Origin: Magallana gigas | Lineage: Eukaryota | DNA: 64,000 nt | Assembly: GCF_963853765.1 (NCBI RefSeq) | Contig: NC_088855.1 | Location: 57,412,001-57,476,000, forward strand | Direction of reading: 5' to 3' | Shown here: piece after piece, positions 9,001-55,700 of the stretch | Layout: each line of letters begins with the position of its first letter | How positions within the stretch are numbered: position 1 is the stretch's first letter | Position numbers: made by a program

Positions 9001-12000
9001 CCGTGTCCCCACCCCCACCACCAGTATCTGGATTCCCATAAACTTCGCGCGGCCGGTCTCCCGCAGGACCTTCCGGAACTCGGCCCCGTCCAGTGTCTCC
9101 CCCAGAAACACGACCGCCACCTTCTTACGCTGCTCCTGTTGGTCAAAGCTGAGGCGCAGCTTCCGCATCATCCAAGAGAAACTGGGAGAGGTTCCGACCA
9201 ATGACTGCTCCAGGTTTTCCCGATCATGGCCGGAACCGAACGACACGTCAGCCAGACTCTTGGTGGCACAGTCGTTAGTCACCGTACCGACCTCCGACTG
9301 GCTCTGCTGCAGGTCCAGGCGATCCGACACATCGGCGATAAATCGCATGATGAACTTGGAGTTGTCGAGACCAATCGCAGAAGTGTCGAACACTATCTTT
9401 AAGTCCACTGGTATCTTTGGGCCGCAGTCTATAACAGATAACCCCAATCTTGTATAACATGTAATGGTTTAGAGGTGTTAAGCACGCTGATTAGAAGGAT
9501 TTTTATTTGTACTTACGAGCGTTCCCATACAACACCGCGTCCTCGTTGACGGTGGGAGGGGTGGGTGGGGCGGGTGTAGCTGGGGGAACTGAAATATCAG
9601 CCTCAGTTAATTAGCATAAAGATTATCCCCGATACTTAACAAGGTGATCATACAGAGTTGTAAAAAGGAATCTACCTTTGCATGTTCTGACAGCCAGTCG
9701 ATCTTTGATGGACTGAAGTGCGTCAAAGTTGTCTATCTTGAACATAAAATTGTCTGTTGGAGTACTTGCTATAGCCGCAAGTTCTTTTTCGTCTACCTGC
9801 TCAGTAAGTTCATTATCATCAGTATCGTCTTTGCAGCACATATTCTATTTATTCTGTTTATCAATAACAGTCACTATACAATCTCTTTGTCAAACAGCCG
9901 ATCCCAATTGCAAATACATGTAATCAACGCGTATCTGATTATCCTAATTCAAATCCAAAATCCCATATATGAACATCACTGGTTGTCCCATTAACAACAG
10001 TATTACAATGTGTACCTTTTATTTATCTCGATTAAAATCATCCTAATTCAAATTATGCTTGATTGTCTGTCAATCTTCATTACAAACCGTAATCCTTGCC
10101 TAATTAATTTAAATCATAGTTAACATAATCCCTTAACAGGCTACTGATCCCAATCATAAACACTGTATTGCCAATCCGAATCACATACACTGTAATTTAT
10201 TTACCTAATTGCTGATCCAAATCACAAACATTGTAAATTTTTTACTTTATTGCCTATCTCAATTATAAAAATTGTAATTCCTATTCAATTAAGAAATGAA
10301 GATAATAATTTTTCTATTGATCGACGTATCAAAGAAAAAATTGACCGGAAAACTTCATCAATGCGCGTAGCGCATTGATGAAAAAGTTTTCCGGTCAATT
10401 TTTTCTTTGATACGTCGATCAATAGAAAAATTATTATCTTTATTTCTTATCATTTAATAAAACATTTTCAAATAAAAAAATGTGAAGTGTCATTGATCAA
10501 AAATGAAAATAATGTAAATGAAGCGGCGCGTATGAATACAAAACAACAACAGCAACAATATTCAAAATGGATGCGCCTTCAGTTGATGCAGAGCTTATTG
10601 AGCTGAATTTAATGGATTAAACACAAATAGTGAGTTAAAATCTGAACCGGCTGAATTGAAAACGAAAGGAAAATACATGCGATAGCTTGTGATATTATTC
10701 ACTGTGCAGAAAAACTCGTAATAAAACTAGTTTTCATGTGAGATCGCTGGAATATGCAACTGGACATAACCATCCAAGGAAAGGCGATCGTGGACGAAAA
10801 TAGCTGATATGTCGACAAAAAATAGTATGTATAAGCGACTTTTGTAAACGTTGTGGTAACTAGATAGCCAGTGATGTACTTAAATTGTATATCTGCCGCT
10901 TGGAATGCGCCGAAGGAGTTGATGCATTACTCATAGCTTTTCTTTACGACGCTTATATTCTGATGACCGATCATTCACGTGTGTAAATTTAAAAATCATC
11001 GTGAAAGTTTATAGGCCTATATGTTCGTTATAATATTCCTGGAAAAGGAACAGCCAGCCTCGCTGTAAATGTTGATTGATCTCAAGCAGACGAAATCGTG
11101 AGAAGACGCTTAATTTTCTATTTCGTGAATCAAACAATGTGTTTTGTTTATTTTTGAAGGTTAAACTTTCAAGTTTTTATATTCACAAGGTTGCATTTTG
11201 TTTGCTGACAATAAAACAGACACAACTTTACATTTTGTTGACAGTGTTTATCTTTGAAATTCCCGTTCTATAAATAGTGTTAGATCAGAACAGTTGAGAA
11301 AAGTAGATCCGGCAAAAATTTTATTGATGCAGGTATCAAAGAAATTTTTCAACCAATCAGAAGCGTCGATATCTCATCAAACGAATAAATATTAAATGAT
11401 ATTACAAACATCGTGTTTTCTTGGCAGCCGATCCAAATCATAAACACTGTTATCCTTTAACCTGATTGCCAATCACTAACACTGACTGTCATTTTGATCT
11501 TTACCTGATTATCGATCTCAATAACACAATGTGATTCCATTACCCGACCAATCCAAATCACAACCATTTATTTAATTGTTAATCCCAATCACTAACAATA
11601 ATATACCTGAATGTTAATCCCAATCACTGACATTTACCTGATGGTTAATCCCAATCACTAACATTTACTTGATTGTTAATCCCAATCAATAACAATAATA
11701 TACCTGGTTGTTAATTTAATCCCAATCTCTAACATTAACCTGATGGTTAATCCCAATCACTAACATTTACTTGATTGTTAATCCCAATCACTAACATTTA
11801 CCTGATTGTTAATCCCAATCACTAACAATAATACACCTGATTGTTAATCCCACTCACTAACATTAACCTGATTGTTAATCCATTGCTCTATTATTTACCT
11901 GATTGTTAATCCCACTCACTAACATTTACCTGATTGTTAATCCCAATCGCTAACATTAATATACTTGAATGCCGATCCTGATAACAAACATTGTAATCTC

Positions 12001-52700: not shown

Positions 52701-55700
52701 GGAACCCTGTGGCTGCCTTGTAGGAACAGCTGATGGAGTGAGACTTTGTGTTGCTGACAAAGAAACAAAGAAGTCATCCAAGCTGGTCTGGCATCCGAGT
52801 GATGTTAAACACTTGATGTATTAACGGATAAAACTTGCCTGCATATATAAAACATTTGGATACCATGCTTGAATATCGTTAGTGCCTACCTGAAGAATGA
52901 GCCCGGCACTGTGATTTTGCGGTTGGTGACAGCCTTGAACACCCGACTTATGACCTCGTACTCCGCCCCCGACATCTCCTTCTGGAGTTTGTTATCATAC
53001 TTTTCTTGGAGGTCTTCACTAAAATTGAAAATTTCCATCATACTATTTTTTATCAGACAGAATTATAGGATCATATCACAACCATACAGGTTCAAACATT
53101 TAAACAGGAAAGTGAATTAACGATAAAGAAACAGCTTACTCTGATATTCCCAATTCAATGGACATTTCATCATCAATATTAAACAACAGAATACAGAAGT
53201 GATATCGGGTCTGTCCCTGCTTAATTGGAGGGTCCAAACTGATCTGGAAAAAGAAATTCTTACTTAAATCAATATGGAAAAGAAAAAGTTAACTTTTATC
53301 TTATGTAACAGTTTGTTACTAAAGAATCTATATTTGAATGCTCAATGAATACATAAACACATCTATAAAGTGCTAATGATTTATACATGCTATTGACTGT
53401 CATAAAGCTCACCACAAAGAACATCTGTCTGCCGTCTTTGTGGGGCAGTAAAAACAATCGCAGCACTGTGGTGTAGGGGATCTTGTAGTCAAAAGTCTTT
53501 CCGTGAAGTTGTAAAAATGTGTTGTACATTTTAAAGTCATATCGACCTCTGTAATAGAGAAGAACATCAAAAGCATCAGTTCCATAACCGTTACTTCAGA
53601 CAAAAGATTTCTACAGAAAATTTGAAAGATTTTGGTTCCAACAATTTTCCCCCTTTATAAGTTTTTGGTTTTCATAGTGGGACAGATTTACCTTGGAGTG
53701 AAGCATTGAACTTCTGTAAACACAGCAAGTCATAGTGAGACAGATTTACCTTGGAAAGAAGCATTGAACTTCTGTAAACACAGCAAGTCATAGTGAGACA
53801 GATTTACCTTGGAGTGAAGCATTGAACTTCTGTAAACACAGCAAGTCATAGTGGGACAGATTTACCTTGGAGTGAGACATTGGACTTCTGTAAACACAGC
53901 AAGTCATAGTGGGACAGATTTACCTTGGAGTGAAGCATTGGACTTCTGTAAACACAGCAAGTCATAGTGGGACAGATTTACCTTGGAGTGAAGCATTGAA
54001 CTTCTGTAAACACAGCAAGTCATAGTGGGACAGATTTACCTTGGAGTGAAGCATTGGACTTCTGTAAACACAGCAAGTCATAGTGGGACAGATTTACCTT
54101 GGAGTGAGGCATTGGACTTCTGTAAACACAGCAAGTCATAGTGGGACAGATTTACCTTGGAGTGAGACATTGGACTTCTGTAAACACAGCAAGTCATAGT
54201 GGGACAGATTTACCTTGGAGTGAGGCATTGGACTTCTGTAAACACAGCAAGTGCATCACCAGTAGCCTGGATAATATCTGCTTTCTCTAGAACATTGTTG
54301 TAGAACTCCTGGCAAAATAAGTTAATTAGATGGGTAAATAACACCTTTTTTATAGGAACTAGCATGCAATTTTTTTGCTGCTCAGAGCCTCAGATCCATA
54401 CACTTTGGCTGAACGGTTTTTCCATCAAAAGTAAATTTCTTTTTTTACATGTATTTTATCCTTAATAAATTTTAAAACCTGAATCAGACAACAGTTTGAA
54501 ATTGAAATTATTTGTTGTGTGTTATGCTGCTAGAGTGATAATCCTCGACTCAAACAACCTACTTGAACAAGGTCTTTTTCTGTATCTTTGGGGTCGGGGG
54601 GAATGTGGAACCTCAACTCCATCAGCGATACAGCCGCGTCATCATTAGGGTGGAATTCCAGCGTCACTTCCTGTTTGGCGGTAGTTGTGTGAGAGACGTG
54701 GCTGAGGGGAACCTCAAAACCAATCTTGTTGTCAACATCAAACTCCAAGGCATTTCCTACACATTGAATTCATTAAAGTGAGCACAGTTATCACATATCA
54801 TTGTAATCCCAATAGATACAAGAGGAGTCGAATTTGGAGGAGCATTTACAATGTACACATGTCCAAAGATGAGGAGGCTTGACAACAATTTATAAGATCT
54901 ACAAAGCATATACATGTAAAATCATTTAATTTGTCAATGGATAACAGGCAGACCAAAATACACGTAAAACATCTAGTATTATAATATTTCGAAAGGTATT
55001 ATTCTTAAAATTCATGTACAAATAAACACTCATTATTACATGTTTTTGGGAGTTGATTTTAATCAACTCTCCTATGCAGTTACTCTGGCAAACCGAAACT
55101 GAAACAGTGTTTGGACCTGATTGAACAAGACTAGAGTTCATTATTGGTTGGGTCCATACAATTTTTGAAATATTTCGAATACCGATATATAATTTGATGA
55201 AATCAATTCTATTTTTAAATATTACATAACATGATTCATTAAGAGGTTTTCTCGAAATTCTTGTCGGAAAAGTCAAAGAATTCATAATATAAAAATGTGT
55301 GTAATACAAATACAGATTATAAACTACTTGCCAAGCAAATTAACATATCGATGATTTTAAGATAAATCATAATTGATAAAATCAACTCCTGTCAGTACTT
55401 CAGTACTTTGATTATTATTTAGTTTCAAAGGTGCCATTATATTCTTTGGCTAGTTCGCCAACAGTAAACTTGCAACACATGCATGGAGTTCAATGTAGTA
55501 ACTCCTATATCATAAATATCTCAATAATTCTACATCTTATGGTTTATACCTGTAAAATGTGCTATTCCCCAGTTCCAACCTTTCACTGACAAGTCTTTCT
55601 TTTCTAGACTCACCATGTAGTACTTTGAAATGAAGGCTGCTAGTTTTTCAAATTCCTTATAAAGAAAATGAAACAAATAAGTCATGTACTCCAATTGCAA

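What the first reader, a model, noticed from the sequence alone, without database searches (positions are those of the whole stretch)
9860..54251. Window-wide pattern: tandem repeats nucleated at splice junctions in four genes
Seen: seven arrays or duplications copy an exon-intron boundary (11560-12142, 12750-13602, 24930-25435, 41035-41151, 49210-49520, 49850-50603, 53672-54251) and two more begin within ~5 nt of a donor. Units are unrelated to each other (26-80 bp), so this is not one repeat family. In the donor cases the true exon is the 5'-most copy and the rest decay into the intron. Inference: a recurrent mechanism of intron growth, either mutational (R-loops or stalling at splice sites) or selective (only duplications leaving the first donor intact survive), which also supplies raw material for new exons, introns or recursive sites. 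I do not know of this being described as a genome-wide process in bivalves.
Basis: partly seen in the sequence, partly recalled or inferred. Interest (0 to 1): 0.68.

Follow-up and report, generated by a model that had tools for sequence, protein, structure and literature searches.

The report
Minisatellites anchored on splice junctions
Several introns of four neighbouring genes are swollen by short tandem repeats that began as copies of the exon's own end plus its splice donor, an arrangement already known from a few human genes but unusually dense here.

Summary
All four genes lie on the minus strand: a VWA-domain gene, a calpain, a diflavin reductase and SSRP1. Six repeats copy an exon end plus its donor. 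Five are arrays; one is a plain two-copy duplication. One array copies an acceptor. Two more arrays start 4-5 nt inside the intron without copying the exon. The exon parts of the units are conserved coding sequence, so the repeats derive from the exons and not the reverse. One case is ambiguous: the calpain "donor" coincides with an in-frame stop codon.

This architecture is not new. Minisatellites whose first monomer spans an exon-intron boundary are described for human F7, IFI 6-16, CBS, LMNB2 and PDGF (PMC1557585). In F7 the most upstream donor is chosen and the identical downstream sites stay silent.

What stands out here is density. A random-duplication model expects 1.4-1.9 donor-anchored arrays out of 11; I count 5-7 (P about 0.01 to 0.0002, not corrected for how the window was chosen). 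The copied donors evolve like the rest of each unit, so nothing suggests selection on them. Whether junctions are mutational hot spots genome-wide could not be tested, because no mollusc genome, RNA or population data were available.

The parts
12750..13605 (-). V1 array. The unit is 27 nt, with about 30 copies. It starts 2-3 nt upstream of the donor of the first VWA exon (exon end 13603, cag|GTGAGA).
   Evidence: TRF reports 12805-13605, 29.9 copies, 81% matches. The junction seed aligns at -2..+30, with 0 of 200 shuffles reaching the score. Pfam VWA profile positions 1-45 end at this exon end.
11440..12164 (-). V2 array. The unit is 31 nt. The first unit is the last 22 nt of the second VWA exon plus 9 nt of intron (exon end 12143, cag|GTAAAG).
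   Evidence: TRF reports 11550-11971 (12.6 copies) and 12063-12125. The seed aligns at -34..+19, 0 of 200 shuffles. Pfam VWA 46-143 ends at the donor.
9900..10277 (-). Distant, diverged copies of the V2 exon end, further down the same 2346-nt intron and reaching close to its acceptor at 9796.
   Evidence: TRF reports 10167-10277, period 41. The seed aligns at -24..+5 and at -27..-6, each with 0 of 200 shuffles.
29537..29991 (-). 35-nt x 13 array starting at intron position +5 after calpain exon C6 (exon end 29996, aag|GTCAGT). It does not copy the exon. It fills 455 nt of a 582-nt intron.
   Evidence: TRF: 95% matches. The match starts at +3. The exon part is not significant, 45 of 300 shuffles. 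Pfam Peptidase_C2 supports the exon.
27133..28615 (-). 58-nt x 25 array starting 5-8 nt after calpain exon C9 (exon end 28623, cag|GTCAGT). It does not copy the exon. It fills 1483 nt of a 1950-nt intron.
   Evidence: TRF: score 2435, with higher-order periods of 120 and 178. The match starts at +4. The exon part is not significant, 74 of 300 shuffles. Pfam Calpain_III 2-34 supports the exon.
24930..25480 (-). Five units of 63-79 nt in the greedy unit list, the exon copy included. They copy the last 45 nt of the calpain domain-III exon plus what follows it. The boundary at 25436 is either a donor (ggg|GTAGGT) or the stop codon TAG.
   Evidence: TRF reports 24993-25167. The seed aligns at -40..+19, 0 of 200 shuffles. 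Pfam Calpain_III 76-137 and PDB calpain alignments support the exon. The candidate last exon has no Pfam family.
41030..41171 (-). A single extra copy (two copies in all) of the last 19 nt of a reductase exon plus 29 nt of intron (exon end 41152, cag|GTAAGT).
   Evidence: The seed aligns at -19..+29, score 61 against a null maximum of 25, 0 of 200 shuffles. TRF does not find it. The exon matches NADPH-cytochrome P450 reductase 5gxu at E = 0.037 up to its end.
53672..54252 (-). S5 array. The unit is 58 nt, with exactly 10 copies. The first unit is the last 38 nt of an SSRP1 exon plus 20 nt of intron (exon end 54214, aag|GTAAAT).
   Evidence: TRF: 96% matches, no indels. All 10 units are listed, each with the same donor. 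The PDB SSRP1 alignment runs to the last exon residue. The next exon carries Pfam PH1_SSRP1.
49860..51974 (-). S11 array with 26-nt and 32-nt units. The first unit lies at SSRP1 exon end 51964 (cag|GTAAGT). The second unit is split by a 1333-bp element with terminal inverted repeats (50604-51936). The array resumes at 50612-49860.
   Evidence: Sequence read. TRF reports 50244-50607 (14 copies) and 49865-49954. Seeds align at -13..+29 (0 of 200) and -7..+29 (1 of 200). The inverted repeat arms are 39 nt, 82% complementary.
49210..49520 (-). Copies of the acceptor of the SSRP1 exon starting at 49203 (tttacag|GTATGA). The functional copy is the 3'-most one.
   Evidence: TRF reports 49292-49377, 28 nt x 3.1. 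Of 7 local hits, 4 exceed the shuffle maximum.

Best explanation
These are junction-anchored intronic minisatellites.

Origin (shown). A short segment of 26-79 nt that straddles a 5' splice site was duplicated in tandem; once the segment straddled a 3' splice site instead. It was then amplified by unequal exchange or slippage among the units.

Tolerance (inferred). The cell tolerates the copies because the splicing machinery takes the most upstream of several equivalent donors, so every downstream copy leaves with the intron. For the acceptor case the same logic requires the 3'-most copy to be the one used.

Function (inferred). The copies have no function of their own. They are a by-product that lengthens introns and loads the pre-mRNA with silent decoy donors.

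Excess over chance (open). Donor-spanning duplications are among the few that a compact gene can tolerate, which may contribute. A modest extra bias remains unexplained.

The two calpain arrays that begin at +4/+5 are ordinary intronic minisatellites whose 5' edge sits at the first base not constrained by the donor.
For: - Homology of units to their own junction: 10 of 11 seed comparisons had 0 of 200 shuffles reaching the score, and the eleventh had 1 of 200.
- The exon parts are ancestral coding sequence (Pfam; PDB).
- Amplification was by block exchange. TRF finds higher-order periods of 62/128 and 120/178. Variants in the SSRP1 58-nt array are interspersed A-B-A-C-D-C-B-E-F-D.
- Copied donors are as strong as the true ones, by a generic donor scoring matrix that I set up from memory. 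40 sites score at least 8.0 bits (the median of the 41 true donors) in 3421 nt of junction-derived arrays. The rest of the introns hold 11 such sites in 14995 nt.
- No selection on the copied donors is visible. The donor 9-mer columns rank 18 of 27, 21 of 31, 15 of 26 and 29 of 58 for conservation among all circular 9-nt windows of their units.
- None of 48 copied donors would extend the reading frame.
- Precedent and mechanism of tolerance: in human F7 intron 7 the identical downstream pseudo-sites are functional but silent, because selection runs 5' to 3' (PMC1557585; abstract, Introduction and Discussion read).
- The donor-to-acceptor ratio of 7:1 fits a rule in which the first copy wins (P = 0.07).
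Against: - A tolerance filter alone cannot make junction arrays commoner than arrays inside introns. The random-duplication model expects 1.36-1.65 donor-spanning arrays of 11, against 5 observed (P = 0.0055-0.012). Counting the two abutting arrays gives 7 against 1.56-1.88 expected (P = 0.00015-0.00041). The excess survives adding three weak arrays and dropping the uncertain calpain case.
- Three of 11 arrays have their 5' edge within 5 nt of a donor (P = 0.003).
- Use of the first donor is inferred from a mammalian study. There are no RNA data for this organism.
- Homogenisation among units could hide selection on the copied donors.
Confidence: 0.6

Rival explanations
1. Mutational hot spot. 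The 5' splice junction, or the exon edge more generally, is a preferred site of tandem duplication in this genome. Possible causes are polymerase pausing, R-loops, transcription-replication conflict, or a recombination-prone donor-like core. On this view junctions seed minisatellites far more often than intron interiors do.
For: - The within-window excess over the random-duplication model: 5-7 observed against 1.4-1.9 expected.
- 3 of 11 arrays have their 5' edge within 5 nt of a donor (P = 0.003).
- Only 2 arrays of independent origin (periods 107 and 177) lie inside introns. A third interior array, the 41-nt one, is a diverged copy of the V2 exon end. Intron interiors offer many times more positions than junctions.
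Against: - In the 5 spanning arrays and the two-copy duplication the junction sits at varied places within the unit, 2 to 45 nt from its 5' end. There is no common breakpoint.
- The P values are not corrected for the fact that this window was picked because it looked striking.
- There is a single window and no genome.
- The donor bias (7:1) is only P = 0.07.
Confidence: 0.25
2. Selected function. Arrays of donor copies are kept because they bind U1 snRNP. That could suppress premature cleavage and polyadenylation in A+T-rich introns, or enhance recognition of the upstream exon.
For: - Copied donors are dense and strong, 11.7 per kb against 0.7 per kb elsewhere in the introns.
- The introns are A+T-rich: G+C is 0.29-0.43 across the window.
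- That U1 has such a protective role is recalled from the literature, not from any call here.
Against: - Donor columns are no better conserved than other columns in 4 of 4 arrays tested.
- The two largest abutting arrays carry 0 donor-like sites of at least 6 bits in 1931 nt, yet occupy the same position.
- The units are unrelated and of different ages (81-96% matches).
Confidence: 0.08
3. Reverse direction or artefact. Either pre-existing intronic or transposon-borne repeats were captured as exon ends, or the arrays are assembly errors.
For: None found.
Against: - The exon parts of the units align to conserved residues of VWA, calpain, cytochrome P450 reductase and SSRP1 right up to the junction.
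- No unit has a copy elsewhere in the window (14 of 14 units).
- The copies differ from one another (81-96% matches).
- One array is interrupted by a later transposon insertion.
Confidence: 0.02

Closest known systems
Human minisatellites whose first monomer spans an exon-intron boundary: F7 intron 7 (37 bp), IFI 6-16 intron 2, CBS intron 13, LMNB2, PDGF intron 4. Source: PMC1557585 (abstract, Introduction and Discussion read).
   Same: The architecture is the same: the end of the exon plus the donor is reiterated head to tail in the following intron. The authentic site is the most upstream copy, and the downstream sites are identical or near-identical pseudo-sites. Unit sizes fall in the same range (37-100 bp there, 26-79 nt here).
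   Different: - Those are isolated loci in long mammalian introns. Here 5 arrays and one two-copy duplication of this kind, plus one acceptor version, lie in four adjacent genes with short introns (median 222 nt once arrays are collapsed).
- Use of only the first donor and copy-number polymorphism are shown for F7. Neither is testable here.
Intron gain by tandem duplication of an exonic AGGT proto-splice site. Sources: PMC2891723 (passages read); PMC3265369 and PMC4974935 (search listing and start of abstract only).
   Same: A tandem duplication that contains a splice signal changes gene structure without changing the mRNA.
   Different: In that model the duplication creates the intron, and both intron ends derive from the duplicated exon segment. 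Here the introns already exist, and the acceptor side and downstream exon show no similarity to the units in any of 6 introns.
Simple repeats at intron ends in teleosts: GT repeats near the 5' splice site and AC repeats near the 3' splice site. Source: PMC4691745 (search listing and start of abstract only).
   Same: Repeats are concentrated at intron boundaries.
   Different: Those are dinucleotide repeats proposed to act through RNA structure. The arrays here are gene-specific copies of the junction itself, with no complementary partner at the other end of the intron.

Membership tests
Junction-spanning intronic minisatellite (F7 intron 7 type) | Head-to-tail array of units of roughly 10-100 bp in an intron | tested here: met
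   TRF rows. The periods are 26, 27, 31, 58 and 61, with 2.9 to 29.9 copies. The reductase case has only two copies, so it is a duplication and not an array.
Junction-spanning intronic minisatellite (F7 intron 7 type) | The first monomer contains the end of the coding exon and the authentic donor | tested here: met
   Alignments cross the junction for V1, V2, R5, S5 and S11, with 0 of 200 shuffles reaching the score. The exon ends are conserved coding sequence. For the calpain C11 array the result is inconclusive, because the boundary may be a stop codon instead of a donor. The feature is not met for the 35-nt and 58-nt calpain arrays.
Junction-spanning intronic minisatellite (F7 intron 7 type) | The donor sequence is reiterated in downstream monomers | tested here: met
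   All 10 SSRP1 58-nt units carry aag|GTAAAT. V1 copies are mostly cag|GTGAGA at 11.6 bits, equal to the true site. The junction-derived arrays hold 40 sites of at least 8 bits in 3421 nt.
Junction-spanning intronic minisatellite (F7 intron 7 type) | Only (or mainly) the most upstream donor is used in mRNA | not testable with these tools
   No transcript data were available. Indirect evidence only: none of 48 copied donors would keep an open frame.
Junction-spanning intronic minisatellite (F7 intron 7 type) | Copy number varies among individuals | not testable with these tools
   There is a single sequence and no population data.
[quoted passage not shown] | The 3' end of the intron and the start of the downstream exon are copies of the duplicated exon segment | tested here: not met
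   I ran 18 comparisons on 6 introns. The lowest shuffle counts were 8 of 300 and 15 of 300, which are not significant for 18 tests.

The most novel reading that the evidence does not exclude
Junction-anchored minisatellites would then be a main, continuing route by which short introns grow, genome-wide, and would fill pre-mRNAs with about as many strong decoy donors as real ones.
Probability: 0.25. Interest if true: 0.65.

Novelty: new member of a known kind. Interest (0 to 1): 0.45.

Why it matters
- If the local density holds genome-wide, it would name a concrete and datable source of intron length growth in a compact-intron animal.
- It would also supply hundreds of natural experiments on how the spliceosome picks one donor among identical ones. 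In these four genes 40 decoy donors match or exceed the median true donor, against 41 true donors.
- For annotation the point is practical. Gene finders and splice-aware aligners can slip to a downstream copy and call frameshifted exons.
- As single loci, the arrays are further examples of an architecture already described in human genes.

Tried and rejected
- **Exon ends captured from older repeats:** rejected, because conserved domains run to the junctions.
- **Hidden exon homology in the two abutting calpain arrays:** not significant.
- **Selection on the copied donors:** no signal either way.
- **A gradient of decay away from the exon:** not seen.
- **Dispersed family or shared unit:** none within the window.
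- **A further coding exon after the calpain array:** no Pfam support, so that boundary stays ambiguous.
- **Literature:** ten full-text searches found no genome-wide survey of junction-spanning tandem repeats and nothing on them in oysters or other molluscs. A Daphnia tandem-repeat survey does not mention splice sites at all (PMC3152781, term search). A human catalogue of repeats that affect splicing showed nothing on repeats that copy a junction in the 12 of 14 passages displayed (PMC10078293).
- **Searches not made:** I searched exons one at a time and neither searched nor folded a joined spliced model. The one genome collection open to me holds only bacteria and archaea, so I did not scan it. 
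Full report
**What is in the window**

The window has no N and 29-43% G+C. All features in the finding belong to four genes on the minus strand. I modelled them by hand from stop-to-stop reading frames, GT/AG sites and frame continuity:
- a gene with von Willebrand A (VWA) domains, 13759-8881, 4 exons;
- a calpain, about 32560-24764, 11 exons and perhaps a twelfth;
- a diflavin NADPH reductase, 42668-37326, 12 exons;
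- SSRP1, the FACT complex subunit, 56485-44409, 17 exons.

Phases agree at nearly all junctions. A few acceptor positions are approximate (the starts of reductase exon 8 and of SSRP1 exons 2, 4 and 8).

I searched exons one at a time and neither searched nor folded a joined spliced model.
- Pfam gives VWA profile positions 1-45, 46-143 and 141-173 for three consecutive exons. It also gives Peptidase_C2 and Calpain_III for the calpain, and PH1_SSRP1 and HMG box for SSRP1.
- PDB searches align the SSRP1 exon to human SSRP1 up to its last residue.
- The reductase exon aligns to NADPH-cytochrome P450 reductase across its end (E = 0.037).
- The calpain exon aligns to calpain-1/2 domain III.

I did not test the organism's identity.

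**Checking the observation**

Tandem Repeats Finder returns 41 rows for the window. Inside the four genes there are 11 array loci with period of at least 20 and score of at least 100.

I aligned a seed of 40 exon nt plus 30 intron nt from each junction to the array that follows it. In 10 of 11 comparisons no shuffle out of 200 reached the observed score, and in the eleventh one did. Nine alignments start in the exon. These cover the two VWA arrays (27-nt and 31-nt units), two distant sets of copies of the second VWA exon end further down its intron, the calpain array after domain III, a two-copy duplication in the reductase, the 58-nt x 10 SSRP1 array, and the 26/32-nt SSRP1 array.

The 26/32-nt SSRP1 array looks far from any exon. 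Reading the sequence shows that its first unit sits at exon end 51964. The second unit is split by a 1333-bp element with 39-nt terminal inverted repeats, and the array resumes beyond it.

The acceptor case holds too. Four of seven local hits upstream of the exon starting at 49203 exceed the highest shuffle score.

The two remaining calpain arrays (35 nt x 13 and 58 nt x 25) match only from intron position +3/+4. Their similarity to the exon end is not significant (45 of 300 and 74 of 300 shuffles).

The units share nothing beyond the donor motif, and none occurs elsewhere in the window (14 of 14 units).

- The calpain boundary at 25436 (ggg|GTAGGT, 8.4 bits) coincides with an in-frame TAG. 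The protein ends either at that stop or, after splicing to 24775, three residues later. The candidate last exon has no Pfam family. That array may therefore be a duplication of the coding end plus 3'UTR, not of an exon-intron junction.
- There is no decay with distance. Unit scores against the exon copy are flat along the VWA arrays. In the SSRP1 58-nt array unit 2 is identical to unit 0, and variant types are interspersed. TRF also finds higher-order periods (62/128 and 120/178). The arrays evolve by exchange among units, not by stepwise decay.
- The reductase case is a two-copy duplication that TRF misses even at score 30.

**Is it more than chance?**

The 41 introns have a median length of 287 nt, or 222 nt once arrays are collapsed to one unit and the transposon is removed. 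Short introns matter here, because a random tandem duplication of 26-60 nt that is not wholly exonic then has a 6-14% chance of straddling a donor.

- Summed over the 11 arrays, this geometric model expects 1.36-1.65 donor-spanning arrays. I observe 5 (P = 0.0055-0.012).
- Counting the two arrays that start within 8 nt of a donor gives 7 observed against 1.56-1.88 expected (P = 0.00015-0.00041).
- Adding three weak arrays gives P = 0.009 and 0.0005. Dropping the uncertain calpain case gives P = 0.021 and 0.0007.
- Three of 11 arrays have their 5' edge within 5 nt of a donor (P = 0.003).
- Donor against acceptor is 7:1 (P = 0.07).

These values are not corrected for the window having been flagged because it looked striking, and they rest on my own exon models. 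Within the window the excess is real. It is not proof of a genome-wide rule.

**Consequences for the genes**

Junction-derived arrays add 3332 nt and the two abutting arrays add 1845 nt, out of 23350 nt of intron (14% and 8%). Introns that carry them are 449-2346 nt long, against a median of 287 nt.

I scored donors with a generic matrix set up from memory, not trained on this species. The 41 true donors have a median of 8.0 bits. The junction-derived arrays hold 40 further sites at or above that value in 3421 nt (11.7 per kb). The rest of the introns hold 11 in 14995 nt (0.7 per kb), and the two abutting arrays hold none.

None of 48 copied donors of at least 6 bits would extend the reading frame without a stop. 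Any use of them should therefore give transcripts with premature stops.

**Tests of mechanism**

- If the copied donors were kept for a function, or removed as harmful, their nine columns should be more or less conserved than the rest of the unit. They are neither. They rank 18 of 27, 21 of 31, 15 of 26 and 29 of 58 among all circular 9-nt windows. Homogenisation among units weakens this test.
- If the introns had been created by duplication of an exonic proto-splice site, the acceptor side and the downstream exon should resemble the units. In 18 comparisons on 6 introns none is significant.
- The SSRP1 58-nt array has exactly ten units, and I saw no shared bases between the start of the unit and the sequence after the last unit. 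Simple slippage between short direct repeats is therefore not indicated for that array.

**Comparison with what is known**

The architecture is described. Borensztajn et al. 2006 (PMC1557585; I read the abstract, Introduction and Discussion) study the 37-bp minisatellite of human F7 intron 7, whose first monomer spans the exon 7-intron 7 boundary. The identical downstream pseudo-sites are functional but unused, because selection proceeds 5' to 3' and takes the most upstream site. Their Introduction lists the same arrangement in IFI 6-16, CBS, LMNB2 and PDGF. This supplies both the family and the likely reason the arrays are tolerated.

Intron gain by tandem duplication is related, but it fails its defining test here (passages of PMC2891723; listings only for PMC3265369 and PMC4974935). 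Teleost GT/AC repeats at intron ends are a different kind of boundary repeat (PMC4691745, listing only).

Ten full-text searches found no genome-wide survey of junction-spanning repeats and nothing on them in molluscs. Subscription journals and supplementary files were not searchable.

**Verdict**

The loci are new members of a known kind. The most likely account is tolerated tandem duplication across a boundary where the first copy wins, followed by ordinary minisatellite dynamics, with no function of the copies (confidence 0.6).

The local excess at donors leaves room for a genuine mutational bias at junctions (0.25). That is the interesting reading, and it needs a whole genome, transcripts and population data to test.

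What stayed unchecked: orthologous introns in other species, any genome-wide count, actual splice-site use, and copy-number variation.

Noticed in passing
window 50604-51936: A 1333-bp element with 39-nt terminal inverted repeats (82% complementary) and a second internal inverted pair. It is inserted in the second unit of the SSRP1 26-nt array, so the array is older than the insertion.
   Followed up: partly
window 10290-10449: A 71-nt near-perfect palindrome (96% complementary, 18-nt spacer) inside the long VWA intron, within about 1.1 kb of sequence that is not derived from the exon-end copies. It may be a foldback or miniature transposon.
   Followed up: no
window 15321-16355 and 46550-47809: Two longer-period satellites: 166 bp x 6.2 between genes, and 157/177 bp x about 6.6 in all (1.8 + 4.8 copies in the two TRF rows) inside the 3620-nt SSRP1 intron. 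Neither is related to a junction. The 166-bp period recalls an oyster satellite from memory, but I did not test that.
   Followed up: no
window 28970, 55614, 25590 (minus strand): Strong GT sites (10.8, 10.2 and 10.3 bits) inside conserved coding exons. The gene models require these sites to stay unused, which shows that donor strength alone does not decide site choice in these genes.
   Followed up: partly
window 8881-9468 and 2401-2916 (minus), 3853-4800 (plus): A second VWA domain encoded in one exon (Pfam E = 4e-05), and a paralogous reading frame 6.5 kb away that has no Pfam hit. A serpentine-receptor-like reading frame lies on the other strand between them. This suggests a local segmental duplication.
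   Followed up: partly
window 24930-25436 (minus): The calpain coding end, its stop codon TAG and a donor-like GTAGGT overlap. An AATAAA follows the last repeat unit at about 24932. If the stop is used, this is a tandem duplication of a coding-end/3'UTR boundary, which would be tolerated for the same reason: the first copy wins.
   Followed up: partly
window 620-892, 7099-7570, 63250-63587: Three further clean arrays (30 nt x 9.1 at 100% matches; 49 nt x 9.6 at 97%; 43/86 nt x 7.9) lie outside the four modelled genes. I could not tell whether they touch a junction of an unrecognised gene. Two neighbouring reading frames, 7889-8434 (+) beside the 49-nt array and 63020-63229 (-) beside the 43-nt array, had no Pfam hit.
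   Followed up: partly
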